A DNA stretch of 17,130 nucleotides from Amoebophrya sp. A120. Lineage: Eukaryota; Protista; Dinoflagellata. The stretch is from positions 360,934 to 378,063 of the forward strand of contig CAJINV010000025.1 of NCBI GenBank assembly GCA_905178155.1, read 5' to 3'. The notes under the pieces were generated by a model. That model was not told the origin of the DNA. It saw nothing but the letters and a program-made list of their open reading frames with translations, and made no database searches. Within the stretch, counting starts at the first letter, position 1; every line of letters starts with the position of its first letter. Positions 1,141 through 17,130 of the stretch are shown here, piece by piece. The position numbers and the translations under genes were made by a program.

Positions 1141-1465
1141 AGTTTCATTTATACACAGTGATACATACTTCTTGCCACCTGCGAACTTTATTCGGTCAAC
1201 CTCAACAATACCGGTTCTGTAACTACATGGATCGATGAAGAATCGAATTTTGCAGTTTTGCCCTGCCGCAGCATTTCGGTTATTTCAAAGGCGTTCTCGT
1301 GTGGACCTACAGGGAAAATCGGTCGCGCGTATGGTGCAAAATTTTCTGTATGCGGTATTTTTAACTTCGGTGTTGGTACTACCTTGTCCAAGGTTGAGGC
1401 TGGCTATTTTTCACCCCGTCGGTCCTCGTGCAACGAGGTCACGTTTTTGCAATAGCATGTCGGTT
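1141..1465 (+). repeat. Dispersed repeat R1, copy 1
   Basis: Shares long blocks (gaattttgcagttttgccctgccgcagcat, cgcgtatggtgcaaaattttctgta, ttttcaccccgtcggtc) with 5522-5760 and 7018-7385. Confidence 0.85.
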
Positions 1466-1670: not shown

Positions 1671-2148
1671 GTGGTATTTCGATTCCATCTACCCGAAATA
1701 AAGCAAACCGATCCAATAGAAGGAATTTCTTTCTGTTATCGATTGCAAATATGTCTGGGGCTGGAAATTTGTGTTGTTGAAGCTTTCGCGAGTCTGGGTC
1801 CGTCTGGAAATTTGTGTTGTCAGAGTTCTTGTAGACACTTCCTACATAATTGTCATGACATCAGAACTTTTGCGAAATTCGCAAAGAAGGCACTTACTGC
1901 AGATTCAGGCGTAATAAAATGCACGACAAAGAAGGGCGACAAGGTGCTCTTGCTCAACCTCAATCGCATTCATGCATTACAGATCTTGTTGCCCTTCCAA
2001 TAGTTCGCATGACAAATAACCCAGCCCCAGACTACATATTTGCCAACATGCATACCCGGTTGCTTTCCTGAACTTCACTGTCGTGGTACTTACTTCGATT
2101 CCATCTATCCGAAGAATCTAAACCGATCCAATAGGAATTTCTACCTGT
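1671..2148 (+). repeat. ~65-bp imperfect direct repeat pair (1671-1736 and 2083-2148)
   Basis: Both copies read gtggta..ttcgattccatcta.ccgaa..a....aaaccgatccaatag..ggaatttct..ctgt. Confidence 0.8.
1737..2054. mobile_element. Degenerate family A TAT...ATA element
   Basis: Left end tatcgattgcaaatatgtctggggctggaa; right end ccagccccagactacatatttgcc...gcata. Flanks tctgt/cccgg do not match. Confidence 0.7.
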
Positions 2149-2444
2149 GGAGATGGTCGGCTTGTAACTGTTGGTGTTGTAACTGTAAATAAAAGTTAAA
2201 TTTTACGTGCGGGCTACTTCGAAGAAGAGACAGAAGACCCCCTAGTGCCTATTTCAATTTCTTCTTTTCTGCATCAAAAACCTCCCAAGGCCATCGCTCA
2301 TCTTTCTTGCTTGTTCCGAAGCAAACCTACAGAAGTTTTTGTTGTGAACAAGAATATTAACCGAGTTTATAATTTTTAAGTACTTATAGTAGATTACGCA
2401 TCCTTCCACGAAACGACCCCTGTGAGGACAGCTACATTTTTCCA

Positions 2445-4871
2445 ATGGATACGTCTCGTCGTGGATTGCCCTGTTGGGCGATTGCCGTGCTGGTCGCGGT
2501 AGGGGGAGCTGTCCAAAGCGAGGGAGTGACATGGCGGAGGAGCTGCGGAGAGACGAGGGAGGAACTGCGTCCGCAGGAGCGGGAGGAACTGCGTCCGCAG
2601 GTATCCTGTGCAAAAGTACTATCCGATACTCGTAGAAATGCATTACAAATTTCCTCAGCGTGAGAAATGAAATTTGTAATGCCGATTCACCTTAAGGAAA
2701 AGCAAAAGATGTGCAATGCATGATTACAATACGAGTACGATGCTTTTGCATTGCATAGCAGGGGGGATGGACCGATGTCGACGACGTCTTCCGCTGCAGT
2801 GCGGAGTATGAAATGCAGAAATGTCTCCGTCTGGAAGATTGCTAGGCTTGTGATGCACGTTCTGCATGAGCCATGATCGATCTGTGATGCATGCCCTAGC
2901 ATCACAGATTAGATTTTTTGAGAGCATCTTGATGCGCCAGCCTATTCCGCATGACACATGCACTCTCCGCGTAGCAAAATTCACACTCCCTTTGCTGCCC
3001 ATGCAGTACTACAGATTTCGTTGGAAAAATCCAAATGCAGCGTCACAAGTTGCATTCCCATTCTCCCAGACCCAGATATATTTGCAGTCGATACGCAGGA
3101 CTACGAAGCGATGGCGCAAACCTGGGTTCCAGGCCTCCAGGCAGAACCTGCTGCTGGCTCAAGAACAGTTGGAGGCCTGTTGTCTACTTCCGCGAATTAT
3201 ATTGATAGAGCGGTGCGTCCGGTGCACATTTTCTTCGAAACGTTTGGAAAAACCACCCTGACAGGCGCATATAACTTGATGAAGCAGCTGGCAAAAACGC
3301 CGCACGTTAAAGTCACCTTTGTTGGCCCGGTGGGAAAGTTGATACAGAAAAAGGATCCGGCGACCGGCGAGCGGGTGATTGTGTATGCGGATCAGCTGCT
3401 ACCTGTATTAAATGTAAATATCGATCTGGGTCTAGAAGAATGCCAGGTTTGTCATGCATATTTTGCATATACCCGTGATGCCTGCAATGCAGGACCTAGC
3501 ATCACAGATTCTTAAAGGGCCTTCTTATGCGTGGTCCGCATGAGAAATGCCCACTCCGCGTAGCACAAACTGAACTACTCTTGCTGGTCATGCAATACAG
3601 ATGTTTTTCGCTTCCGAAGACAGCATCACAAGCTGCAACCTTCCAGACATCCAGGGATTTTTGCATTTGATAACCCGCGGCGAGCAACGACGTGAAAGGA
3701 GATCTATCCTGAGTAAAAACGTACCCGCACCAGAGTTGTAAGGCAGATTTGCAAAGACAGGAAGTCTTGTAATGCGCATCCCCATGAGAGCCATTTCCAA
3801 TCGTGTCTTGGAATTTGTGATGCTGTGAACAGGATGAGCAGATGAATCTGTGATGCGGCTGCACTTGCTAACCTGCACTACACTGCATAGTGCAACTTGT
3901 CACGCGTGACTCACAAAACTCCTAGGCTTGTGTTGCAAAATCCTCATCCTGACTCTGGTGTGGGTACGCTTTTACTCAGGATAAGATCTTCCAGATCCCG
4001 CCCTTGAGGGAGACAAGACCTATATGAATTGTGAAAGTGTCTGGGTCTGCAAACTTGTGAATGTGATGCTAAAATGTGCAACCAAGATGAAAACAGTTCC
4101 GAATGGAATGTAGCATGACAACTTTCCAGCACGCTTTCTCATAGGCAATCCGCATGAGAGACTCACTGCGTGTTTGCAGGTACAAAAGAGGCTGCGCCTC
4201 TTGGTGGTTGTGCAATACAGATTTCCTAGGTATAATGAAAAGCTAGCACTACAAGTTCCAACCTTTCAGACCCAGACATATTTTTTGCAATCGATAACCT
4301 ATCTTGCGAAACAACTGAGAAAGTACGATCGGCTGCAGCACAACGGGACGGTCTGGACGGAGAGGAAGTCGGAGAATGTTACTGTTCTTTGGGACTTTGC
4401 TGTCTCCGAAAGCGAGATGAAGAGCCTCGGCGCGGCCGGAGTGGAGTTCGTGCCCTGCCGCCCCCGAAGATACTTTTGGAGTGTGAAAAGCAACACCGCG
4501 GTGCGACAGATGTTGCCGCGTTTGTTTTTGACGGACGGGGGGGAAAATCCGGAGGGCTCTACTTGGGTTATCAAATGCAAATATGTCTGGGTCTGGAAGA
4601 TTGCCAGGTTTGTCATGCATATGTTACATGACCCATGACGATGAAGATGATGCTTCTAATGCATGACCTAGCATCGCAGATTTTCATTTTTAGAGGGCTT
4701 CCTGATGCTTATTCCGCGCAAACTGGACCCCTCTTGTTGGTCATGTAATGCAGATTTTTTTAGAATGCAGCAACAGCATCACAAGTTCCAACCGGCCTCC
4801 AGACCCAGACACTTTTGCATTTGATATCAGTTTTCCGCGAACAAGACAACCGAGACTGGCCGCGCCAGTTT
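2445..4871 (+). CDS. Split gene for an unknown, probably secreted or membrane-targeted protein; segments 2445-2601, 2763-2806, 3099-3405, 3678-3704, 3989-4022, 4302-4568, 4832-4871 (876 nt, 292 codons, no stop yet)
   Basis: Manual removal of six elements plus one 5-bp repeat each gives MDTSRRGLPCWAIAVLVAVGGAVQSEG...EELRPQ/GGWTDVDDVFRCSAE/DYEAMAQTW...ADQLLP/AASNDVKGD/LPDPALEGDKT/YLAKQLRKY...PEGSTW/VFREQDNRDWPRQF with no stop. The N-terminus is hydrophobic. Confidence 0.8.
2557..2601 (+). repeat. In-frame 24-bp tandem duplication (REELRPQE/REELRPQ)
   Basis: gggaggaactgcgtccgcagg occurs at 2557 and 2581. Confidence 0.9.
2602..2757. mobile_element. Family D short TAT...ATA element / putative introner (156 bp)
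   Basis: tatcctgtgcaaaagta...gatgcttttgcattgcata with perfect flanking gcagg/gcagg. Homologous to 11431-11581 and 11635-12000. Confidence 0.88.
2807..3093. mobile_element. Family A element / putative introner (287 bp)
   Basis: tatgaaatgcagaaatgtctccgtctggaaga...ctcccagacccagatatatttgcagtcgata; flanks cggag/cgcag (4/5). Confidence 0.88.
3406..3672. mobile_element. Family A element / putative introner (267 bp)
   Basis: tattaaatgtaaata...ctgggtctagaaga to ttccagacatccagggatttttgcatttgata; flanks acctg/acccg (4/5). Confidence 0.88.
3705..3983. mobile_element. Family B element / putative introner (279 bp)
   Basis: TIR tatcctgagtaaaaacgtacccgcaccagag / ctctggtgtgggtacgcttttactcaggata; perfect agatc/agatc. 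Confidence 0.92.
4023..4296. mobile_element. Family A element / putative introner (274 bp)
   Basis: tatgaattgtgaaagtgtctgggtctg...cagacccagacatattttttgcaatcgata; perfect accta/accta. Confidence 0.9.
4569..4826. mobile_element. Family A element / putative introner (258 bp)
   Basis: tatcaaatgcaaatatgtctgggtctggaaga...tccagacccagacacttttgcatttgata; flanks tgggt/tcagt (3/5). Confidence 0.9.
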
Positions 4872-4997
4872 TATGCATTGCAAACATGTCTGGGTCTGGA
4901 AGATGTCATGCTGCTTCTGCATGACACAGAAGGTCTGGCATGGAAGCCCTAGCATCACAGATCTCGAGAAGGTTTTGCAATCCGCCTAATCCGCGAC
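4872..4997. mobile_element. Truncated family A element (left part only)
   Basis: tatgcattgcaaacatgtctgggtctggaaga plus the internal ctagcatcacagat block; no right TIR found. Confidence 0.75.
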
Positions 4998-5521
4998 AGA
5001 AGAAAAAAATGTGTATAATTTTCGTTTGTTAAAGAGTTTATAATTCTACCACTACTCAGGGAGGTGGGGTAGGCTTAATGGGGTAAATTCAGGCTCTCCA
5101 CCAATGTTGCCCGAATCGGATAGAACACAGACGAGGTCCGCTTCAAAGTTCGACTTTCATTTGTTGAGATACCCAAAAGACTGCTCATATGAGACGACTC
5201 AGTCCGGAGACTACACATCAGGCATTCACAACGAAGTCGGTCGTGTCGGTCCTGTCGTACTTCCACAGCCACCGTAGGAGCGAAACTGTGGAGAAGAAAG
5301 GCTCGCATTAGTAAGCTGGTTCTTGTCTTCGTTCGAGTCGGTGATCATATTATGGTTTAATTGGTGTGGCTCAGCTGTGGTGTATATATAGTTTTGAGCA
5401 GGATTTATTGCAACATTAACGCTTTATCGGTTTCAATTTTTGTCCGAATCTATTTTCAGAATTCGGGCACTTGAATTTGTTAGCGCCATCGGTTAATACT
5501 ATTTGATATCAGACCTGTTCT

Positions 5522-5760
5522 GGTTCTGTAACATGGATGAAGAAGCGAATTTTGCAGTTTTGCCCTGCCGCAGCATCTCGGTTAATATTTCAAAGACGTT
5601 CGGTTCGTGTGGAACTACAGTGTAAATCGGTGTGGTTATTTCAAAGATAAGACGTTCTGGTTCTGTTCGTGTGGACCTACAGTGTAAATCGGTCGCGCGT
5701 ATGGTGCAAAATTTTCTGTATTCTGTCCGAATTATCGTGCAACTTCTGCTTTTAACCTAC
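5522..5760 (+). repeat. Dispersed repeat R1, copy 2 (partial, with internal duplication)
   Basis: Matches 1213-1350 and 7101-7281; tatttcaaaga...ttcgtgtgga.ctacagtgtaaatcggt occurs twice. Confidence 0.85.
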
Positions 5761-6606
5761 TGGCTCGACTGGATAGCGCAGCGCTGGTTCCCGGTATCAT
5801 TTGGAAAAACTTCCCCACCCCATAGTCAAGTAGATGAATCTTGCAACACAAATCTCCAAGTTTTAGGAGCTGCGCATGACAAATTTCCCTCTGCAGTGTA
5901 GTGCTGATTGGCAAGAGAAGCTGCATGAGAAAGCCACTTTCGCATCCTTTTTACAGCATTACAGATTCCAAAACACGAGTGGAAATGCCTCTCATGCAGC
6001 TGCGCATTACAAATGTTGCTGTCATTGCACATTTGCATGACAACTTTGGTGTGGGGACGGCGTTTTTACTCAGGATACCCGGCAGCCGTGTTTCGCAGTC
6101 CGTTCTACTGCGTGTTTCCGAACACGGTGTCACATATTTTGGCCAAAGTGGATATGGGAGTGTCAGGATTGAAATCGTCAAAGTTGAAATAGTTTGTCAT
6201 GCATAAATTGGATGCCGGTTGGAACCCAGGTTCCAAGTAGCGCATGACAGATTCGGGCGTTGCCTAGATCCAGTTTGTAATGCTGCTTAGGCAAAGAGAA
6301 CCGATTTTCTCATGCTACTTTAGCAGCTCCAGCTCTAACCCGAAACAGGCTTACAATCGGCCTCACTTGCCTGCTCTGCAACACACGTCTGTGGCGTCAT
6401 GCATTTTATGCATTAAAAGTTATTCCAACTTTGTCCATTTCGATCCTGACACTCCCAAAGTGGAGGGCTTGCGGTTGGCGAAGCAGGAGGACTATTTGTT
6501 TCTCTTCTACCGAGATTATTGGGTGAACTCTCCAGTTCGGTTTGTTTGTTTCAGAGCAGACGGAGAAAAAGGCTGTAGCAGGGGCGATTTCATCTTCATC
6601 CTGTGA
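5755..6606 (+). CDS. 3' part of a split gene; segments ~5755-5794, 6083-6152, 6465-6606; possibly the end of the 2445-4871 gene
   Basis: Removing two elements plus one repeat each gives TYWLDWIAQRWFP/AAVFRSPFYCVFPNTVSHILAKV/EGLRLAKQEDYLFLFYRDYWVNSPVRFVCFRADGEKGCSRGDFIFIL-TGA. The 5' boundary is uncertain because it abuts R1. Confidence 0.7.
5795..6077. mobile_element. Family B element (283 bp), opposite orientation to 3705-3983
   Basis: Ends tatcatttggaaaaacttccccacc / ggtgtggggacggcgtttttactcaggata. The interior is the reverse-complement homologue of 3780-3950. Perfect cccgg/cccgg. Confidence 0.9.
6153..6459. mobile_element. Family C element (307 bp)
   Basis: TIR tatgggagtgtcaggattgaaatcgtcaaagttgaaata / tattccaactttgtccatttcgatcctgacactcccaaa (terminal ATA reads AAA); perfect gtgga/gtgga. 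Confidence 0.9.
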
Positions 6607-6883
6607 CGCTAGAAGTTCATTTGGCGAAAATTTGTGTAAATAAGTAATTCAGCAGCAGGAGCAGCTGGCTCCAGTACAAGAACAGCTGCTAGTGCAGAAG
6701 ATAATTCTCGTCCAGCAGAACAACACATCATAAATCTTGTGGAAGACAGGTGCTTGAAAGTCGAGGCTTTACGGGCATTCACGGCGGGAGGAATAAAAGC
6801 TGCGAATTTGTAGTAAAAGACTCAACAATAGAGACATACACGCGATCTCTTCGGCAAGAGCTTTGGTTTGCCGTAAGTAGACT

Positions 6884-6934
6884 AAAGAACAACAGAGCAC
6901 GACTTAGTCACTAAGTCGTGCTCTGTTGTTCTTT
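6884..6934. repeat. Perfect 25-bp inverted repeat with 1-nt spacer
   Basis: aaagaacaacagagcacgacttagt-c-actaagtcgtgctctgttgttcttt. Confidence 0.95.
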
Positions 6935-7017
6935 CCATGCTGCACCAATTTCTCAACGAAGAAGTAGTGCACTGGTTATATATTCGATGCACCAATTTTA
7001 ATATCGTCCATCTTCGA

Positions 7018-7385
7018 GTTTCATCATACACCGTGACACTTCTTGTCACCTGCGATGAACTTTCGGTCAACCTCAACAATGATACCGCTTCGGTGACGTG
7101 AAGAATCGAATTTTGCAGTTTTGCCAAGCCGCACCGTTTCGGTCATTTCAAAAACGTTCTTGTCTAGACCTAAAATGAAAATCGGTCGTGCAGCGTATCG
7201 TGCAAAATTTTCTGTACGTACGTATGGTGCAAAATTTTATGTATTCTATCCGAATTATCGTGCAACTTCTGCTTTTCAACTACTTCGGTGTTGGTACTAT
7301 CTTGTCCAAGGTTGACGCTGGCTATAATTTTTCACCCCGTCGGTCGTGCAACGAGATCACTCGTTTTTGCAACAGCATGTCGGTT
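7018..7385 (+). repeat. Dispersed repeat R1, copy 3
   Basis: Collinear with 1141-1465, with small indels. Confidence 0.85.
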
Positions 7386-7630
7386 GTTCTCGCCGTGCAC
7401 AATATGTTGATTATCGTACACAATTCGTACGCAACATCCCACATCCACAACAGGACAATGTGAAGCTTTTGTTCTTCGCGGAATTATAAACGCTTCTACT
7501 TTGCCCCTACAAGTTTACATAAATCACTAACGACGGCTGCTCATCTCACAGATATTGAATTTATATTTTATTGAAGTACTATTCACACCAAAAGAAAACG
7601 AAATTGAATATAAAATTATTGACCACGACG

Positions 7631-8790
7631 AGACAACAAAACTAAGTACTCAAAGAAACACGAAGCGGAAGCGGTGAAGAGAAACACGCATAAGAGAAGC
7701 GGAATCGTGCGTTCCTGCAGCCCACAACAAGTATGAGATGGACTGAGCGATTCAAAATCAACGGATTCAAAAATTTTCTTTCATGTTCCAAGCTTTTCCT
7801 GACTCTTGAAAAGAACAGCAGCAAGGATGGGCTGTGTTCTGGGTGATTTTTTGCGTTCGCCGAAACGTCGCCCAGAAGAGTATCAAGCGAACAAGCTAGG
7901 TCGATCTCAACTTGACTTCGTGACTTAGGCGTACGTGAACGCAGAAAAACCGGGAAGGGGAACAAGGCGAGTGTCTGCATTCATAAACGTGAAGAATTCG
8001 CAGAAGCAAGGGGCAACAGAGTAGGCTACACAGCGGATACCCTCGAAGCCCAAGCCTGCCACTATTTGGCCCCAAGGCGCTTTTTTTGTTGGCATTTTTT
8101 GTTGCATTTTTTTGTTGGCATAGTAGCCCGCGCGGCCTCCGTGGACCTGGTCGAGGCTGCCGCAGGTTTACAACCTTTACGCGAGCAGGCCCAAAGGCAT
8201 TCCCACCACGGCGCACCAGAAGCCGCCGGCCATGCCCGGCGGTCGGCCCGCTTGGGTTTTGGAATGGGCCTTGGGTTGCCCTTCACATGGCTGACGCGCG
8301 TTTTTCCCGGGACACAACTTGGCGGCACTGTTGCGTCTTGTTTTTCCGATCATTTCAAGGCTTCATGCGCACGCGCTGACTTCATCCCCTACTTTGCAGC
8401 CTGTAAGTATAAAATGGCAAGTAGTTGCCTCAAGTTGAGACCGGCCACGTTGGCCTCTTTCGTAGTCTTCGGCCTACATATTTTACTTCCATAACCCGGC
8501 GCCGACATCTCCGCCACTTACCTGAAACTGCTCCGCGCGACGCCGAATCCGGGGACGTTTTGGAGGAGTTGATGGGATGCGTTTTAGTTGAAAAAAAATT
8601 TTTGAATCGCTTGGGTTTGAATCGCTCAGTCCATCTCATAACAAGGTACCTAATTCATTCCCAATCTAGACAACAAACACGAAGCGGAAGCGGTGAAGAG
8701 AAACACGCAATTCCTGCGGTGAACGAAGAGAAACACGTGCGCTCCGGCCGCCCACAAGGTACCTACTTGATTCCCAATCTAGGCATTGCA
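7631..8790 (+). repeat. Tandem pair of a ~110-130 bp unit (7631-7731+8646-8667 and 8668-8782); the first copy is split by the 909-bp element
   Basis: Both read agacaacaaa...acacgaagcggaagcggtgaagagaaacacgca...gcccaca..aggtaccta....attcccaatctag. Pieces recur at 10452-10474 and 12613-12634. Confidence 0.75.
7732..8640. mobile_element. Long family G TAT...ATA element (909 bp), non-autonomous
   Basis: tatgagatggactgagcgattcaaa / tttgaatcgctcagtccatctcata is a perfect 25-bp TIR extending imperfectly to ~55 bp; perfect acaag/acaag. Confidence 0.92.
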
Positions 8791-10444
8791 TTTTTCCAGA
8801 CATCTCATGCTAGGCATCACAGATGATAGCTAGGACTAGGTCGCGCAGCACCAGCGCGAACCTCGTGAGCGCCAGAATGGGTTACTAACCACCTCTGTGG
8901 CCCCATTTTTGTTCTCCCGTGGCCAGCCCTTGCCTACAAAAATGGACGACACCGGGGGAGCACAGGAGACGCGCAGCCAATGCCCACGCCGATGTCGGTG
9001 CGCAATCAATCTGGAGAGGGAGGCGAAGATGGCGCGCGCATGCTAGAGAAGCACGCACTATCAAAGGAGCAACTAAATCACTTCACATCTGAATCATAGG
9101 GCCAAAAAAAAAAATTTTTGAGTATTAATATAGCTTAGCATGAAGAAATGACTTCAGTTGTATGCACATGATGACGATGCGAATATGCCACCAGAATGGC
9201 AGTTTTGAAGGCTCAAATGAAGAGCTTTGATTTTGAACTAGATAGTTGATAGCTGCAGGACGATCTAGATAAGTAGCTAGCTGAAGATCATGGTTTATTT
9301 GATGAAAAAACAAAGAATATTAGAAGGATTTCGCCTTGTGGCTTCCGGCCGGCAGCCTCTCGCCAAGCTGGAGCGAGGAGCTGCTACGCCTCCAATGTGG
9401 AGAGCTGCTGGGAGACATAAACCGCCAATGAGCCGAAGAGCTGGCACTCCGTGACGAAGCAGCCCAACGGATTCGGAGCTGGTACTCCGTGACGAAGCAG
9501 GCCAACGGATTCGCCCGAATCCGTTGGGCTGCTTCGTCACGGAGTTCCAGCCCTCCGGCAGAAGAAGCACACATTCTTCCCCGCAGAGCTCCACGTTGGC
9601 GACGTCCCAGCTCCTCCAGCCTGGCGGGAGGCTGCCTGCCGGAAGCCACCAGGCGAAATCCCTTTACTTTTCTTTGTTTTTTCATTAAATAAACCATGAT
9701 CTTCAGCTACTTATTTAACTAGATCTTCCTGCAGCTATCAACTACCTAGTTTAATTAAGAAGCTCAACAGCAGAGCCTTCTTCTGCCGTACCTGGTTTGC
9801 ATTCTGCATCATATCAACGCAATCATTCATAAGTGAAAGCCACATGATTTGTTACTTGAAATACATTAAAAAAATTTTTTTTTTGGCCCTATGATTCAGA
9901 TGTGAAGTGATTCATTTGCTCCTTTGATAGCACGCGCGGCTTGTTTACTCATCTTGACGCGAATATATATAATTTAGCGAGCTCGTGGCCCCTCTCTCCG
10001 GCGACGCAGTGGCCCGCCACTGCCCGCTAGCGACCTCTGTTGGGGAGGGTTCGGGACTTGTTGCAGCCTCTGTTGCGCCCGGCGCTGCGACCTCTCGGCG
10101 CAGTGCTGGAGCACGGTTCGACCCACGTCTGTGGGCGGACAAGTGCGACGCCCGCAGCCACCTCTGTGGCGCGGACGTCGCGGCGCGGTCCCTGCTGCAC
10201 GCCTCGCTACTGTATCTAGTAGCACAAAAGACGCTGCGAAGCAGCGCAGATACACTTTATACAGAGCCGGAGTTGTTCCACCACTGTGAAGGGTGTCGTG
10301 GCCTTTTGTTGAGAACATACGGACTAGAGCAGCGGCCCCATGCGGCCGCAGAACTGCGGGGATTTGGGAAGTAGTTTGTGTTCGCCTCACGATGATCACC
10401 AAGATGCTACCCAAGTCACATCATGGATCAGGTACCAACAGGGC
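8750..10444 (+). repeat. Segmental duplicate 1 (paralogous to 13487-16384), interrupted by the palindromic element
   Basis: 8831-9058 matches 13552-13830 and 9950-10444 matches 15829-16384 (e.g. ttgcagcctctgttgc.cccggcgctgcgacctctc). Confidence 0.85.
9059..9929. mobile_element. 871-bp foldback (fully palindromic) element with TAT...ATA ends and probable 8-bp target duplication
   Basis: tatcaaaggagcaa..aatcacttcacatctgaatcatagggccaaaa matches the reverse complement at the right end, and the arms pair inward to an axis at 9514-9515. Flanks gcacgcac/gcacgcgc. Confidence 0.92.
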
Positions 10445-10479
10445 GGAAGCCGAAGCGGTGAAGAGAAACACGCATTACG

Positions 10480-10741
10480 TATCAAATGTAAAAATGTCTG
10501 GGTCTGGAAGATTCTAAACCTGTAATGCTGTCTCTGGATTCTAAAAAATTTGTATTGCATGACCAGCAAAAGGACTCCAGTTTGTGCTACGTGAAGAGGG
10601 CATTTCTCATGCGGTAGAGGCACCACAAAGTCCTCTGAAAATCTGTGATGCTAGGGCATGCATCACAGACATCATCGGCCATTCAAAATATGCATGACAA
10701 ACCTGGCAATCTTCCAGACCCAGACACTTTTGCAATGGATA
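10480..10741. mobile_element. Family A element (262 bp), left unit of a composite; opposite orientation to 3406-3672
   Basis: tatcaaatgtaaaaatgtctgggtctggaaga...tcttccagacccagacacttttgcaatggata; own flanks ttacg/ggtgg do not match. Confidence 0.92.
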
Positions 10742-10800
10742 GGTGGGCGCGACCTGCCACCCGGTGGGGCGGGAGGAATTCGACGTGCCTCCACCAGCAC

Positions 10801-11062
10801 TATCAAGTGTAAAAGTGTCTGGGTCTGGAAGATTGCAACTTGTCATGCTAAATCTGAAGCATGCAAAAATTTGTTTTGCATGAGTGCCAAAAGCTGTCCG
10901 CTTTTGACCAAGTTGAGAGGGAGTTTCTCATGCAGGAAAGGCATGATAGAGCCCTCAAAGAATCTGTCATGCTGGGTCTCGCATTCCAGACCTCATGAGT
11001 CATGGAAAACCTGCATCACAAATCTTGTATTTTTCCAGACCCAGACATTTTTACATTTGATA
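10801..11062. mobile_element. Family A (subtype A2) element (262 bp), right unit of a composite
   Basis: tatcaagtgtaaaagtgtctgggtctggaaga...ttccagacccagacatttttacatttgata; own flanks agcac/ttacg. Close inverted homologue of 16385-16646. Confidence 0.92.
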
Positions 11063-11096
11063 TTACGAATACCAAAACGAAAACCGAACTTCAAGA

Positions 11097-11403
11097 TATC
11101 AAAGTGAAAAAAGCCCCCACCCCATATTCAAAAGACGATTTGTGTTGGTGGATTCGTGTACTACGCAAATGAGCTTTGTAATTGCAGCAAGAGCTTGTCT
11201 GCATATAATTCTATAGCCCATTTGGGTGCTGCGCGCCCGGCTAGCAGCTGAGCATGTGAAACAAGGCTGACATATTAGGCGAAAACGCATGACAGACTCG
11301 CTGAACAATGCGCCACAAGGGTTCCGCTTGCCTTGTACGCAAGACAAAGCATCGCAAATTTTCCTCTCGATGTGGGGACGGGGGTGGATTTTTCCTTACG
11401 ATA
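11097..11403. mobile_element. B-related TAT...ATA element (307 bp)
   Basis: tatcaaagtgaaaaaagcccccacccca / ggggacgggggtggatttttccttacgata. The left end resembles 5795-5825; flanks caaga/cgcga (3/5). Confidence 0.72.
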
Positions 11404-11430
11404 CGCGACTCGCTTTCTCCGCGGCCTGCA

Positions 11431-11581
11431 TATGAACTGCAAAAGTATCGTATAAATGCATGACAAATTCCCTCAGCATGAGATTGAGCAATTAAAATTT
11501 GTAAGTATATGCGTATGTGACTTAACAAAAAGATTTGTAATGCATGACTGCAATACGAGTACGATACTTTTGCACAGGATT
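11431..11581. mobile_element. Family D element (~150 bp), right end eroded
   Basis: tatgaactgcaaaagtatcgta...tacgagtacgatacttttgcacaggat; same orientation as 2602-2757. Confidence 0.82.
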
Positions 11582-11634
11582 GCTTTCTATAGTTAGAACT
11601 CCGCGCCAGCTCCTTCACGACGATCGAACTGTCC

Positions 11635-12000
11635 TATCCTGTGCAAAAGTATCGGATTCGTATTGCAGTCATGCATTACAACAAATCTTTTTGTTAAGGT
11701 AAATCAGCATTGCAAATCAGTCAGGGTAGAGGAGCAATCCTCGGGCACATAGATAACAAAACGCTGCACATCTGAAAGAGTTTTTTTGAAAGAAGAAAAG
11801 AACAGACGTGCACCATCAGAAGTGTAGTGCTGGCGGTAGCACTTGTGCTGCACCATCAGAAGTGCGTAACTCGCATGCCGGGCGTGCCATGTCAGGATGT
11901 CAGGATAACGCAGAAGCTCAGTCAGTCAGTCAGCATTGCAAATTTTATCTCTCATGCTGAGAAATGCACTTATACGAGTACGATACTTGTGTAGTTCATA
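11635..12000. mobile_element. Family D element, inverted, containing a nested insertion
   Basis: tatcctgtgcaaaagtatcg...cgatacttgtgtagttcata; perfect tgtcc/tgtcc. Confidence 0.88.
11718..11929 (+). mobile_element. Probable non-LTR retroelement fragment (SINE or 5'-truncated LINE)
   Basis: The insert is absent from the other D copies, is flanked by a 14-bp direct repeat tcagcattgcaaat (11704-11717, 11930-11943), and ends in (TCAG)n. Confidence 0.6.
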
Positions 12001-12022
12001 TGTCCGGCGGGAAAATATCGAT

Positions 12023-12676
12023 ATGAGAGTGCATAAAAACAACTCGATCTCCACGTACTACCCAGCTGCAGCCGCCCGGGACGAGAGTGCGGCTCTACTG
12101 CTGAGCGCGGAAGATAACGCAGTGGGACAGCACGTTGAACAGGAGACGGAAAATGTTGAAAAAACCCCCGCCCACGGGGGCTGTTGCCAAGACTGCTGCA
12201 CGAAAAAGTGCGTGCTCATCCTTCTCCTCATATTTCTCGTCCTCGCAGGCGGTGCTTGCGTTTTAATTTTCGTTCCCTGGTTCGACGTATCAAATGTAAA
12301 AATGTCTGGGTCTGGAAGGATGCGAACTTGTGATGCTGTCTTCGGATTCTAAAAAAATCTGTATTGCATGACAAGCAATTATAGGGCTCCAGTTTGTGCT
12401 TCGCGGGAGGGCATTTGTCATGCGGAATAGGCATGATCAGGAGGGCCTCTAAAGCTCTGTGATGCTAGGTCATGCATTCCAGACCTCATAGGTCATGGGA
12501 AACCTGCATCACAAGTCTTGCAACCTTCAAGACCCAGACATATTTGCAATCCATACGACGGTTGGAGTGAATCTTTGTACACGAGATGGAGAGGAGGTGC
12601 GACGTTCCTGTCGCCCACAAGGTACCTAATTCATTCTCATATTCTAAGCATAACGCACTCCAGATCGGTCACATAA
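12023..12676 (+). CDS. Putative single-pass membrane protein, split (12023-12287, 12561-12676); may be a fragment and may extend upstream
   Basis: MRVHKNN...GGCCQDCCTKKCVLILLLIFLVLAGGACVLIFVPWFD/GWSESLYTRWRGGATFLSP...VT-TAA has a Cys cluster followed by a hydrophobic helix. The last ~20 codons lie in a dispersed repeat. Confidence 0.55.
12288..12555. mobile_element. Family A element / putative introner (268 bp), opposite orientation to those in 2445-4871
   Basis: tatcaaatgtaaaaatgtctgggtctggaagg...ccttcaagacccagacatatttgcaatccata; perfect cgacg/cgacg. Confidence 0.93.
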
Positions 12677-12711
12677 TTCTAGGCATCAACTGCACAAATA
12701 GGACTAGGTCG

Positions 12712-12962
12712 TATGGATTGCAAAAATGTCTGGGTCTGGAAGAATGCAAGTTTGTCATGCTTGTCTGGCATGGCTCGAAAATCTGTGTTGCATAGGCGCG
12801 AAAAGGCTCTCTTGCCTGTCATGCAAAAACCCAGTTTGCCATGCGGAATACGTAAGACATGGCAGCCAAAAAATTTGTCATGCGTAGGTGCGTATTGCAG
12901 TGCGTCTACCATTCACTTTTAGCATTACAAGTTTCCAGACCCAAACGTTTTTACATTTGATA
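12712..12962. mobile_element. Family A element (251 bp)
   Basis: tatggattgcaaaaatgtctgggtctggaa...ttccagacccaaacgtttttacatttgata; perfect ggtcg/ggtcg; empty paralogous site at 8831-8870. Confidence 0.93.
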
Positions 12963-13023
12963 GGTCGCCAGACATCACCACCAGCGCGAAGAACCTCGTG
13001 AGCCCTGGGGGTATTGTGCGGGA

Positions 13024-13233
13024 TATCCCACGAAAAAACTGTTTTACTGTGATGATCTTGCAAGATCTGCATCGCAGGTTTGTATACACATGACACAGAA
13101 AATTTGCATTGTGCGCTTCCCAAGGGAAAACACGCTAAAAAATCCAATGTCTTGCAGGCGTAGCAAGACAAATCGTTCCGTGCTCCATTCTCTGCATCAC
13201 AAGTTCACAGTGAAACAGTTTTTTCTTGCGATA
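13024..13233. mobile_element. Family F element (210 bp)
   Basis: tatcccacgaaaaaactgttttactgtga / tcacagtgaaacagttttttcttgcgata; perfect cggga/cggga. Confidence 0.9.
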
Positions 13234-13281
13234 CGGGAGCAAAACAAAGTGAAGTGGAAATATCAAAGCGACGCAAGCTGT

Positions 13282-13487
13282 TATCCCACGAAAAAAGTGT
13301 TACAGTTACACATTTGTTGTCAATTCCGCAACACAAATTTTCTCTGCATGAGACTTGTAATGCGAAGATCATAAGGGAAAACAGGAAGGAAAGGAGGCTC
13401 CGAAGCATTTCCTGCATGAGAAAGGTTGTCTCTGTTGCCAGTCTTGCATGACAATGTGTAACTGTTGTAACACTTTTTTCTTCTATA
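13282..13487. mobile_element. F-related element (206 bp)
   Basis: tatcccacgaaaaaagtgttacagttaca / tgtaactgttgtaacacttttttcttctata; flanks gctgt/attca do not match. Confidence 0.8.
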
Positions 13488-16384
13488 ATTCATTCTCATA
13501 TTCTAAGCATAACGCACTCCAGATCGATCACATTCTAGGCATGATCACAAATAGGACTACTAGGTCCTCGCGCAGCACCTCCAGCGCGAACCTCGTGAGC
13601 AGGGCCGGAATTTTTATGGGCCAACCACCTCTGTGGAAGGAAGGACCCCACTTTTGTTCTCCCGTGGCGGCGGTGGCCAGAATTAGAATTTATGCCTACA
13701 AAAATGAAAATAAATGGAGGACAGCGGGGGAGCGCAGCAGACACACAGCCAATGCCTACGCCGATGGCGGTGCGCGAACTGGTAGGAGGGAGGCGAAGAT
13801 GACGCTCGCATGCTCTCGTAAGAGAAGCGTTCGCGGCTTGATGTTGGTCACCCTTTTTTATGTTCACACACGACTCGCAAGGCACATCCTGACGTCTATG
13901 GCTCATTTGGAGTCGCGTTTCAAACTTTCACACGCAGAGCGCGGCGATTCGCAAGTTTAGCCGAACCGGCGTAGCGATTTTGTGTCTGGTTTTCTGACAT
14001 TGTGTGCCCATCACAGAATTCGTGTGATAGGCACGCAACACTTTGAGGGGGCCAGAAATAAAACTGCCGCGCCACTTCGGCTGTACTTGCGACCTTTGGT
14101 GCCTTGCGCGTGACAGTTCGATCCGCGTGTCCAAGCGAGGTGACTGTCGACGTAACACGCAAAGCCTGGGAACGAATTTCTGTGAGTCACCTGAATAAAA
14201 TTGGTGCTCAGATCGGTTTTGCTGGTCAGGGCACAAATCTTACGCAGGCAGCCTACAGAAATTAGGTCTCAGGACCCCACATCCGAGAACTTGTCGGATG
14301 GGACTTCACATCCGAGGAACTCCCGGACGTGAACTCACATCCAAGAATTCCTCGTGTGTCAGCTCACATCCGAGAACTTCTCGGCTGTGCGCAGACATCC
14401 CAGGAGTTAGTATTTGATGTGGCGAAAATCCTTGCGAACAAATTGCTGGAAGTCACCTGCGTAAGATTTGTGGTCCGATCGGCAATACCTATTGGAGCAC
14501 AACCCCTACGCAGGTGAGTTACGGATATTAGCTCTCAGGATTTCCGCCGCATCACGAAATTCTTGACGCAGCGAAGATCCTGGGAAATAATTTCTGTAAG
14601 CCACCTGCGTAAGATTTGTCTTCTCACTGGTAATACCGATCTGGGCACAAATCTTATGCAGGTGACTTACAGAAATTACTTCCCAGGATTGGATCATCAG
14701 TGTGTCCAAGTGTGGCGACTGGAGACGCAGTACGCAAATCCCAGAAGTGCATTTCTTTGGGGCACGAAAGCCGAAGTTGTAGGAGCGCGAGTTCTGCTCT
14801 GCTCTTAGGTAAAGAAAACTCGCGCAGCGCTTTTTCCTCCTGGCCTTCTAGAAGTGTGCTTCTGAACACATCTGCAGAGCGATCTGCTTTTTCTTCTAGG
14901 GAGAAGACGCAGCCTCTGCTAGAAGAAGAAGCAGCTTCTTCTAGAAGCTGCGTTTTCTAGAAGAAAAAAAGTCTGCGTCTTCTACAGGAAGACCAGCCTT
15001 CTAGAAGAAGACAAAACTTCGCGCCTTCTTCTAGAAAAAGACGCAGCTTCTTCTAGAACAAGAAGCTGCGTTTTCTTTTAGGAACTCAGTTTCTAGAAGA
15101 AAACTTCCGGAAAAAGTGTTCGGACAGGGGGTTTGCAAAGGGGTCTTCAAAGGGGTGGTCGCGCAAAGTGCCTTAGTCACGACCTAACAAAGGGTCAACG
15201 AAAGGGGTCAACGAAAGGCTCTCTCGGAAGGGGGTTTCCGCGAGACCTTTTCTGAAAGAAGTCAAGAAGACTTCTTTTAGAGTCTGAAAGAAATCCAGCG
15301 GATTTCTTTTAGACTCTCAAAGGATTTCTTCTAGAGTCTCAAGGTGCCTCAGAGGCACCTTGAGATTCTAGAAGAAATCCTGGGAACTCATTTCTGTAAG
15401 TCCGTTGCGTAGGATTTGCACTCAGGTCGGGATTACCGGTCGAAACGCAGATCCTACGCAACCTACTTACAGAAATGAGTTCCCAGGATCCCACATCCGA
15501 GAATTCCTCGGATGTCAGCTCACATCCGAAGGGTTCGCGGAAGTGAGCTGCAGGAGAACTTTCGCGCGCAAAGTGCCGAACTTTGGCGCCCTGCTTGTGA
15601 AAGTTCGATCCGCGTGTCCAAATGCGGCGATGTAGAAAAAACACGGGAATTCTGGGAGCTAATTCCTGGAAGTCGCGTGCGTAGGGTGTGTAGTCAGACC
15701 GGGACTACCGGTCGAAACGCAGAGCCCGCACACCTGCTTCAAAATTTTTGAAAGCCGAAGCTTTTCGGAACTGCTCTGAGAACTAATTTCTGAAAGCTCT
15801 GATATGTTCACACACGACTCGCAAGGCACATCCTGACGTGTATGGCGCGAATATGTAGAATCCAGGGGCTCGCAGCCCCTTCTTCCGGCGACGTAGTGGC
15901 CGAGCGAGCTTTGCGAGGGCGCACGCCCCTCGTAGCGAAGCGAGCCGTCACTACTTACCCGCTAGCGACCTCTGCTGTTCTTGCAGCCTCTGTTGCACCC
16001 GGCGCTGCGACCTCTCGTCGCAGTGCTGGAGCATGCCTCGACCCAAGTGGTCTATGGGCGGACAAGAGCTGCGACGCGCGCAGCGGACGTCGCGGCGCGG
16101 TCCCTGCTGCGCGCCTCGCTGCTATGTATCTAGTAGTGCAAAAGACGCTGCGAAGGAGCGCAGATTATACACCTTTACTTCATACAGAGCCCCCGGAGTT
16201 CCACCACTCTGAAGGGTGTAACCTTTTGAGAACATACGAACTAAACAAGCTGCCAGCCCGTCAAGGGGCGCCAGCGCTCTGCTGGGGATAGATTTGGGGA
16301 GAATTTTGTGCTCGCGCCACGATCATATAGGTAGCAAACCCTCGTACCCAAATTACATCATGGATCTTCAGGTACCAACAGGGC
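13487..16384 (+). repeat. Segmental duplicate 2 (13487-13902 and 15803-16384), interrupted by a 1.9-kb insert
   Basis: 13487-13600 also matches 12628-12711+12968-13003; otherwise see 8750-10444. Confidence 0.82.
13903..15802. repeat. 1.9-kb non-coding insert of repeated hairpin units, ~30-bp tcacatcc repeats and a TTCTAGAA-rich tract, bounded by a 44-bp direct repeat
   Basis: tatgttcacacacgactcgcaaggcacatcctgacgt(c/g)tatggc at 13859-13902 and 15803-15846. Hairpins at 14165-14273, 14430-14539, 14577-14689, 15377-15489 and 15651-15745. Confidence 0.82.
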
Positions 16385-16646
16385 TATCAAATGTAAAAAT
16401 GTCTGGGTCTGGAAGAATGCAAGATTTGCAATGGAGGTTTTCCATGACCCATGAGGTCTAGAATGCGAGACCCAGCACGACAGATTCTTTGCGGTCTCTA
16501 TCATGCCTCTCCTGCATGAGAAACTTCCTCTCAACTTGGTCAAAAGCGGACAGCTTTTGGCACTCACGCAACACAGATTTTTGCATCATTTAGATTTAGC
16601 GTGACAAGTTCTAATCTTCCAGACCCAGACAATTTTACATTTGATA
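16385..16646. mobile_element. Family A2 element (262 bp), inverted relative to 10801-11062
   Basis: tatcaaatgtaaaaatgtctgggtctggaaga...tcttccagacccagacaattttacatttgata; flanks agggc/gagac do not match. Confidence 0.92.
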
Positions 16647-16648
16647 GA

Positions 16649-17130
16649 GACGTGGCCGGGCCATTAAACGGCGGGGGCGATGATCGAACAAGTTCGGATC
16701 TTGGAGGCGATCAAGCCCAAGTTCGCTTCCATAGATCGGATCTATGGAAGCGTCAGGTTTGAAATCGTCAAAGTTGAAATAATTTGTAATGCATAAAATG
16801 CATGGCCCGAGGCACGTGCGTTGCAGAGCAGGCAAGTGAGGCCGATTGTCCGCCTGTTTGGGGTTCCAGCTCGAGCTGCTAAAGTAGCATGAGAAAATCG
16901 CTCGTCTTTGCCTAAACAGCGTGACAAACTAGATGTAGGGACCACCGAAATTTGTCATGCGCCACTTAGAAACTGGGTTCCAACTGGCATCCATTTTATG
17001 CATGACAAATTATTTCAACTTTGTCGATTTCAACTCTGACACATCCATACGATGGGGGTGGTGGCGATCAGGGTGGTGGCGATGGCGATGGTGGTGGCTT
17101 CTCTCCACAGGAGCCTCCTGATGAACCTGA
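16649..17130 (+). CDS. Partial split CDS, Gly/Asp-rich; segments ~16649-16742 and 17055->17130
   Basis: The joined frame DVAGPLNGGGDDRTSSDLGGDQAQVRFHRSD/(R or G)GGGDQGGGDGDGGGFSPQEPPDEP is open, with GGD motifs on both sides of the element. Confidence 0.6.
16743..17049. mobile_element. Family C element (307 bp), inverted relative to 6153-6459
   Basis: tatggaagcgtcaggtttgaaatcgtcaaagttgaaata / tatttcaactttgtcgatttcaactctgacacatccata; flanks ggatc/cgatg (3/5). Confidence 0.9.

What the first reader, a model, noticed from the sequence alone, without database searches (positions are those of the whole stretch)
3705..17049. Removal appears orientation-independent
Seen: homologous elements lie in opposite orientations inside + strand joined ORFs: B at 3705 vs 5795, C at 6153 vs 16743, and A at 3406/4569 vs 12288. 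Inference: directional signals (5' splice site, branch point, polypyrimidine tract) are unlikely to define the boundaries. The symmetric TAT...ATA stem, or a protein binding it, is the more likely determinant.
Basis: partly seen in the sequence, partly recalled or inferred. Interest (0 to 1): 0.78.

Follow-up and report, generated by a model that had tools for sequence, protein, structure and literature searches.

The report
Transposon introns spliced in either orientation
In a marine parasite, small mobile DNA pieces sit inside genes facing either way and are missing from assembled transcripts at one fixed offset, likely because their mirror-image ends show the splicing machinery the same signals in both directions; the pieces are already known, the fixed offset seems unreported.

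Summary
The window is Amoebophrya sp. A120 DNA: the joined gene at 2445-4952 equals its annotated protein letter for letter. The TAT...ATA elements are the published A120 introner elements (PMC7789003): inverted ends, 5-bp target duplication. Homologues lie in both orientations, and both orientations are absent from contigs of an RNA-like run but not from a DNA-like run. Only C16743 lacks an RNA row, and C6153 looks partly retained. Strand is inferred, not read from stranded reads. The inference is only partly right. The inverted ends give the same 5' and 3' text either way round, so orientation tolerance excludes only signals in the element's interior. Removal is in fact directional: every informative junction fits a cut 1 base before TAT and 4 bases after ATA on the transcript strand. 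That puts T at intron +2 and A at +3, as in GT-A. Two spliced copies have no predicted terminal pairing. The likeliest mechanism is a relaxed spliceosome reading signals carried in the ends, helped by the stem; a Euglena-like structure-guided pathway is the rival. Known system; the fixed register was not found in print.

The parts
2445..4952 (+). Gene 1 coding region, 318 aa after six elements are removed; no family assigned
   Evidence: Joined translation identical to P0001, Amoebophrya sp. A120 CAD7973906.1; X2 contig of 1274 nt fits all six removals
2601..2761 (+). Intron = D-family element 2602-2757 plus 1/4 flanking bases; duplication GCAGG
   Evidence: X2 record 11
2806..3097 (+). Intron = A-family element 2807-3093, orientation F
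   Evidence: the 4/1 mirror register is excluded by P0001
3405..3676 (+). Intron = A-family element 3406-3672, orientation F
   Evidence: X2 piece ends at 3404
3704..3987 (+). Intron = B-family element 3705-3983; duplication AGATC
   Evidence: contig length arithmetic; P0001
4022..4300 (+). Intron = diverged A-like element 4023-4296, weakly F
4568..4830 (+). Intron = A-family element 4569-4826, orientation F
   Evidence: the 4/1 mirror register is excluded by P0001
4872..5001 (+). One-armed A remnant, retained in RNA and translated as the end of P0001
5746..6606 (+). Gene 2 segment: duplicate of residues 1014-1074 of a peptidase M3 family protein (P0005), with two elements
   Evidence: the annotated P0004 (6280-6603) starts inside C6153
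5794..6081 (+). Intron = B-family element 5795-6077, opposite to B3705; duplication CCCGG
   Evidence: X2 record 12 (947 nt) ends at 6152 if it is removed
6152..6463 (+). Intron = C-family element 6153-6459, 3' end CCCAAA; probably partly retained
   Evidence: X2 contigs break at 6152 and 6455 while X1 record 4 runs through 6455; P0005 reads across
7731..8644 (+). Intron = 909-bp TAT...ATA element 7732-8640; duplication ACAAG
   Evidence: X2 joint 7725-8640, depth 1190
8645..17130 (+). Gene 3 model, open for 278 codons, runs off the window; predicted membrane protein, paralogues P0002 and P0003
8759..10431 (+). Inferred canonical GT-AG intron
   Evidence: X2 loose end at 8763 continues with the sequence found after 10431
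10479..10745 (+). Intron = A-family element 10480-10741, orientation R; flanks match 1 of 5
   Evidence: X2 joint 10478-10746
10800..11066 (+). Intron = A-family element 10801-11062, orientation R; flanks match 0 of 5; register uniquely 1/4
   Evidence: X2 joint 10799-11067, no ambiguous base
11096..11407 (+). Intron = E-like element 11097-11403
   Evidence: X2 joint 11094-11407
11430..11585 (+). Intron = D-family element 11431-11581, ends ATT; register uniquely 1/4
   Evidence: X2 joint 11429-11586, no ambiguous base
11634..12004 (+). Intron = D-family element 11635-12000 with an inner insertion, opposite to D11431
   Evidence: X2 joint 11629-12001
12287..12559 (+). Intron = A-family element 12288-12555, orientation R; duplication CGACG
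   Evidence: X2 joint 12282-12556; P0002 and P0003 read across
12622..16371 (+). Inferred canonical GT-AG intron; holds elements 12712-12962, 13024-13233 and 13282-13487
   Evidence: X2 row 12626-16651 with 7 letters between, depth 600 (table 5c)
16384..16650 (+). Intron = A-family element 16385-16646, orientation F, 91% identical to inverted A10801
   Evidence: same X2 row resumes at 16651
16742..17053 (+). Predicted intron = C-family element 16743-17049, opposite to C6153
   Evidence: frame stays open; no RNA row seen

Best explanation
These are Amoebophrya A120 introner elements, short mobile pieces with inverted ends and a 5-base target duplication, which are missing from transcript contigs in either orientation at a cut 1 base before TAT and 4 bases after ATA on the inferred sense strand, likely made by a relaxed spliceosome that reads signals inside the inverted ends. 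Shown: the anatomy, both orientations, removal of element plus 5 bases, and one register that fits all informative junctions. It follows from the geometry that the pre-insertion message is restored whenever the duplication is intact, at any site and phase. Inferred: (1) insertion by a DNA transposase; (2) the arms pair and bring the ends together; (3) N-T-A at intron +1 to +3 stands in for G-T-A, with +1 free; (4) the T tract at -18 to -15 and the A at -7 serve as 3' signals, and the 3' cut is measured from the end of the repeat instead of read as AG; (5) the chemistry is spliceosomal and gives a lariat. Steps 3 to 5 are untested.
For: Identity of host and elements: P0001 100%; ends match the published A120 motif TAT + 7 + at least 3 A. 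Removal in both orientations: six joints in X2 at depth 870.5, with X1 at 0 in those rows; X2 record 11 length fits only removal of all six gene 1 elements, 1 of 16 subsets tried. Other loci: of 76 oriented A copies 21 passed a strict ORF call, 15 R and 6 F; all families 48 of 258 against 14 and 12 in frame-shift controls; an Nramp gene holds both orientations in one 489-codon frame. Directional register: only 1/4 fits A10480, A10801, E11097 and D11431; it also fits F copies A2807 and A4569 and A3406 and A16385, where an element-bound cut would give the mirror 4/1. All 18 predominant non-canonical dinucleotide pairs in Table S4 of PMC7789003 have T at +2. G is enriched at duplication position 4, the last intron base: 24 of 47 against 0.29 background, p=0.002 before correcting for 20 tests; its mirror position shows no such bias. 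Spliced D11431 and D11635 have terminal pairing near 0. Nearly all spliceosomal proteins and U2, U4, U5, U6 were found in A120.
Against: No lariat, branch point or snRNP data exist here. U1 snRNA was not detected. TAT and ATA conservation is partly circular, since I chose elements by it, and a transposase would conserve them too. An A at -7 is very close to the 3' end and would sit inside the stem. Only two junctions fix the register on their own, both in gene 3, whose X2 contigs differ from the window at four listed places and may come from a paralogue or allele. X1 had uncounted joints, so its zeros are not proof. X2 is only guessed to be RNA, and strand is inferred. The G bias is modest and may reflect codon position. 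Euglena introns use the same fixed-spacer layout with machinery thought to be non-spliceosomal. A bias towards R is not excluded (10 vs 3 in frame-specific calls, p=0.09).
Confidence: 0.55

Rival explanations
1. Structure-guided, non-spliceosomal removal. A protein endonuclease and ligase, or a second divergent complex, binds the stem of the paired ends and cuts at fixed asymmetric offsets, as proposed for Euglena nonconventional introns.
For: 19 of 20 elements are predicted to pair their arms, mirror positions 11-14 pair in 16-20 of 20; +1 and -4 to -1 are free; a one-armed remnant is kept; C6153 with a broken terminal pair looks partly retained; U1 not detected; Euglena precedent with 3 and 5-6 base spacers.
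Against: D11635 has no predicted arm pairing on the + strand and D11431 no terminal pairing, yet both are spliced. No G:U excess on the transcript strand. T at +2 in both strains' predominant sites. The outer ends of A10480 and A10801 match best, yet the contig keeps the exon between them (most joint rows were hidden).
Confidence: 0.33
2. The joints are reverse-transcriptase jumps across stable hairpins at the 5-base repeats, or the transcripts come from gene copies that lack the elements.
For: Strong hairpins and direct repeats are the known setting for such artefacts (my own knowledge). Gene 3 contigs differ from the window at 10770, 12034, 12241 and 16687-8. Only contigs were available.
Against: A10801 and D11431 join with no shared base at the same register. 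Gene 1 contig pieces show 0 differences and its 318-codon frame needs all six removals. X1 record 7, which carries one other letter, includes element ends on both sides of the 12001-12282 exon.
Confidence: 0.05
3. The elements are cut out of DNA, as in ciliate internal eliminated sequences or transposon excision, and RNA merely copies the excised DNA.
For: Orientation independence and inverted ends are expected for DNA excision (my own knowledge).
Against: The DNA-like run shows none of the joined forms listed and runs through 6455 without a break. A double-stranded cut would not tie a 1/4 asymmetry to the transcript strand for both orientations.
Confidence: 0.03

Closest known systems
Amoebophrya A120 introner elements (PMC7789003)
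   Same: Same organism label, inverted repeat TAT + 7 + at least 3 A, 3-5 base direct repeats with a 5-base example, non-canonical ends, proposed hairpin-aided splicing.
   Different: The paper calls splice sites variable relative to the hairpin (1-5 bases either side) and, in the text seen, does not treat element orientation. Here one register, 1/4 on the transcript strand, fits both orientations.
Polarella glacialis and Aureococcus anophagefferens introners (bioRxiv 10.1101/2020.10.14.339549, passages)
   Same: DNA-transposon introns with target duplications; several classes make introns in either orientation, with a bias to one.
   Different: They use GT, GC or GA donors and AG acceptors recruited from the element or the duplication. 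Here only T at +2 is fixed and no AG is needed.
Euglena nonconventional introns (PMC12501133)
   Same: Inverted ends, likely MITE origin, fixed asymmetric spacers between the cut and the paired motif.
   Different: Motif CDG/CHG with spacers 3 and 5-6 and a purine at the next exon start; circular products reported. Here TAT/ATA with spacers 1 and 4, in an unrelated lineage.
Fritillaria borealis MITE-derived introns (as reviewed in PMC11282704)
   Same: Inverted repeats and duplications, non-canonical ends, removed by an adapted spliceosome.
   Different: Defined end dinucleotides (AG-AC, AG-AT); here the ends vary except at +2.

Membership tests
Amoebophrya A120 introner element | Inverted repeat starting TAT, 7 looser bases, at least 3 A | tested here: met
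   Element positions 11-14 are A in 17, 16, 19 and 15 of 20; the C copies and the 909-bp element deviate
Amoebophrya A120 introner element | Direct repeat of 3-5 bases at the boundary | tested here: met
   5 bases; 10 of 20 perfect in the window, 189 of 244 in other loci
Amoebophrya A120 introner element | Repeated family, removed from RNA at non-GT-AG ends | tested here: met
Amoebophrya A120 introner element | Host is Amoebophrya A120 | tested here: met
   P0001 identical to joined gene 1; P0004 read from the window lies on a contig of the same length
MITE (non-autonomous TIR DNA transposon) | Short, inverted ends, fixed-length duplication, many copies | tested here: met
MITE (non-autonomous TIR DNA transposon) | A cognate transposase that moves it | not tested
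   No genome held; PMC7789003 found no transposase in A120, PMC12130899 reports TIR and other transposon classes there
U2 spliceosomal intron | GT (or GC) ... AG ends | tested here: not met
   +1 is G in 8 of 20; -2/-1 vary; only T at +2 and A at +3 are fixed, by my selection rule as well
U2 spliceosomal intron | Branch adenosine, lariat, snRNP dependence | not testable with these tools
   A at -7 in 20 of 20 is only a candidate
Euglena nonconventional intron | 5'-N3CDG ... CHG-N5-6|R signature | tested here: not met
   Ends are N-TAT ... ATA-N4
Euglena nonconventional intron | Circular excised product | not testable with these tools
   No raw reads on the exons or elements of this strain
DNA-level eliminated sequence | Joined form exists in DNA | tested here: not met
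   X1 depth 0 at the 7 X2 joints listed, with the tool's warning that some joints were not counted

The most novel reading that the evidence does not exclude
Amoebophrya A120 uses one strict splicing code, N-TAT ... ATA-NNNN, carried wholly in transposon ends. It makes any insertion, at any sequence, phase or orientation, a perfect intron. It is read by a U1-less spliceosome that has dropped both terminal G bases and measures the 3' cut from a branch A inside the repeat. Recombination between such introns would then also shuffle exons, as the A10480-exon-A10801 unit suggests.
Probability: 0.35. Interest if true: 0.78.

Novelty: already known. Interest (0 to 1): 0.45.

Why it matters
How Amoebophrya removes tens of thousands of non-canonical introns without a detected U1 snRNA is open (PMC7789003). 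A fixed, strand-bound register turns 'variable splice sites' into a rule that can be tested base by base and used for gene prediction. It also explains why these transposons are nearly harmless in either direction: exactly one duplication's worth is removed. It parallels the spacer code proven in Euglena. The elements themselves, and orientation-tolerant introners in other algae, are not new.

Tried and rejected
No whole genome is held, so no genome-wide count. A closer read-level look at 2100-6800 was not obtained, which leaves B3705, B5795 and C6153 without direct joint rows. Pfam found nothing for 7 window exons at E 0.001 (one hit at 0.061), 4 of 28 locus ORFs had hits, 0 of 4 short L033 exons. 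Rfam: 0 matches. Removing elements without the 5 extra bases breaks gene 1 and gene 2. G:U against A:C looked suggestive in the window (15 vs 8) and vanished in the larger set (61 vs 54). The lenient ORF call had high controls (38-44 against 96), so stricter cuts are quoted. No crossover point was seen inside A10480 or A10801, and no second composite unit among adjacent pairs in the loci (1 pair with both duplications failing, outer match 2 of 5). Earlier scan notes: none. Considered that gene 2 is on the minus strand, which would cancel the B and C pairs; rejected because P0005 reads across both junctions on +.
Full report
What the window is. Twenty elements of 151-909 bases start with TAT and end in ATA or a one-base variant, with inverted ends. 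Removing six of them plus 5 bases each from 2445-4952 gives a 318-codon frame on +. A search with one exon returned one protein, P0001, labelled Amoebophrya sp. A120 and identical to that joined frame. PMC7789003 describes A120 introner elements whose inverted repeat starts with TAT, then seven looser bases, then at least three A, with 3-5 base direct repeats. The elements here are those.

The observation. Whole-element alignments put B3705/B5795, C6153/C16743 and A3406, A4569/A12288 in opposite orientations. In the A family, 2807, 3406, 4569 and 16385 face one way (F) and 10480, 10801 and 12288 the other (R); 4023 is weakly F and 12712 unresolved. A10801 and A16385 are 91% identical when one is inverted. 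D11431 and D11635 are also opposite. The flanking duplication is 5 bases: 0.71 identity against 0.18-0.31 for other lengths in the window, and 189 of 244 perfect in loci found by the inverted ends alone.

RNA evidence (4 of 12 listed runs laid). X1 covers all 30 bins with very deep elements and behaves as DNA. X2 covers 26 bins unevenly and behaves as RNA; the tool marks this as a guess. Fifteen of 1455 joints were shown. Six at depth 870.5 in X2 remove A10480, A10801, E11097, D11431, D11635 and A12288; one at 1190 removes the 909-base element; X1 is 0 in these rows, though the tool left some X1 joints uncounted. A further row resumes at 16651, which removes F-oriented A16385. For gene 1, X2 record 11 is 1274 bases; of 16 subsets tried, only removal of all six elements ends it at 4947, 30 bases into record 12, the overlap expected of neighbouring assembly pieces (the expected overlap is my knowledge). 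Record 12 ends at 6152 if B5795 is removed. Record 13 starts at 6455, where X1 runs through. I read this as spliced and retained forms of C6153 together; the annotated P0004 starts inside C6153. C16743 has no row among those shown. Gene 3 contigs differ from the window at 10770, 12034, 12241 and 16687-8, so they may come from a paralogue or allele.

Strand. No stranded reads were available. Gene 1 is + by P0001. Gene 2 is + because P0005 reads across both junctions. Gene 3 is + by a 278-codon frame against at most 120 on the other strand, two inferred GT-AG introns, and paralogues that read across A12288.

Other loci. An exact 31-base match to the A repeat gave 130 loci of one contig series, 338 kb; those under 1.5 kb were skipped. 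Of 258 elements, 48 sit in a joined frame of at least 200 codons with 80 on each side and twice the other strand, against 14 and 12 when 4 or 6 bases are removed instead of 5. Of 76 oriented A copies, 21 were called: 15 R, 6 F. In L033 an Nramp gene holds F and R copies in one 489-codon frame; the Pfam hits flank the R copy, and the F copies lie upstream in the same frame. In L037 an F copy splits an ABC transporter. These loci have no RNA data. A mild bias to R is possible (p=0.09).

The register. Where the two 5-base flanks differ, the junction shows where the cuts fall. A10801 and D11431 allow only 1 base before and 4 after; A10480 and E11097 allow that too. F copies A2807 and A4569 allow it and exclude the mirror 4/1; A3406 and A16385 agree. 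So the cut follows the transcript, not the element and not the repeat homology: A10801 shares no flank base at all. This argues against DNA excision and against enzyme slippage at repeats. It puts T at intron +2 and A at +3. All 18 predominant non-canonical pairs in Table S4 of PMC7789003 have T at +2, and A25 repeats start TTA.

Inverted ends show the same text at both ends whichever way the element faces. Orientation tolerance therefore excludes interior signals only. The stem is real in prediction for 19 of 20 elements, but the three TAT/ATA pairs are firm in 11 of 20 and absent in two spliced copies. Mismatches are not skewed to G:U on the transcript strand. A one-armed remnant at 4872 is kept and translated, which fits any model that needs both ends.

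Mechanism. I favour a relaxed spliceosome (0.55) over a Euglena-like structure-guided pathway (0.33). For it: T+2 and A+3, a T tract and a fixed A near the 3' end, a strand-specific G bias at the last intron base, and an almost full spliceosome in A120. From my own knowledge, not tested here: the two terminal G bases contact each other in the second step, so both could relax together, and fused branch-acceptor motifs occur in some protists and yeasts. Against it: no U1 detected, no lariat data, circular selection on TAT and ATA, and the Euglena precedent, where fixed spacers were shown by knock-in.

What is in print. Seen: PMC7789003 abstract, passages, sections 10, 12, 16 and supplement text; its figures (logos, S19-S25, snRNA alignments) are images I could not see and may show the register. 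Passages only: 10.1101/2020.10.14.339549 (its supplements are closed), PMC12130899, PMC9860276, PMC13326754 (45, uninformative). PMC11282704 passages and section 6 (24, 44). PMC12501133 abstract and sections 7, 8, 12 (50, 53, 54, 59). Six searches showed no paper stating orientation independence or a fixed register for Amoebophrya; subscription journals are not searched. Either-orientation introners are reported for Polarella and Aureococcus.

Verdict. The system is already known; the fixed strand-bound register is a useful and apparently unreported detail. Interest 0.45.

Noticed in passing
window 10475-11067: A10480 and A10801 each lack their own duplication, but TTACG flanks the pair, and the outer ends are the best-matched repeats. 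The unit carries a 54-base in-frame exon. It looks like composite insertion or recombination between introners, that is exon shuffling. No crossover seen inside the copies and no second case found.
   Followed up: partly
window 4872-5001: One-armed A remnant is retained in RNA and supplies the last 26 residues of P0001.
   Followed up: yes
window 1737-2054: Diverged A-like element with extra bases in its right end lies unspliced in a low-depth X2 contig (1719-2142, depth 29).
   Followed up: partly
window 5746-6606: Duplicate of a peptidase M3 gene fragment (P0005 residues 1014-1074), in RNA continuous with gene 1; the annotated P0004 starts inside C6153.
   Followed up: partly
window 12034, 16687-16688: X2 shows other letters that X1 does not show: paralogue, allele or editing, unresolved.
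   Followed up: no
window 9051-9937: Large imperfect palindrome (arms 9051-9119/9869-9937 and 9207-9373/9614-9780) inside the first inferred GT-AG intron; a different element type.
   Followed up: no
window 14158-15800: Nested direct and inverted repeats and short tandem units inside the second inferred GT-AG intron.
   Followed up: no
window 8760-10440 and 13540-16384: By eye the two long GT-AG introns share start and end segments, as if gene 3 grew by tandem duplication.
   Followed up: no
window 1236-1442, 5538-5730, 7099-7360: Three copies of a non-TAT repeat between genes.
   Followed up: no
window 16562-16646: About 200 raw reads of X10 match only this half element and continue into other sequence on both sides.
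   Followed up: no
loci, duplication position 4: G in 24 of 47 on the inferred transcript strand against 0.29 background, with no mirror bias.
   Followed up: partly
L033:1946-4436: Nramp gene with seven elements, all with perfect 5-base duplications.
   Followed up: yes
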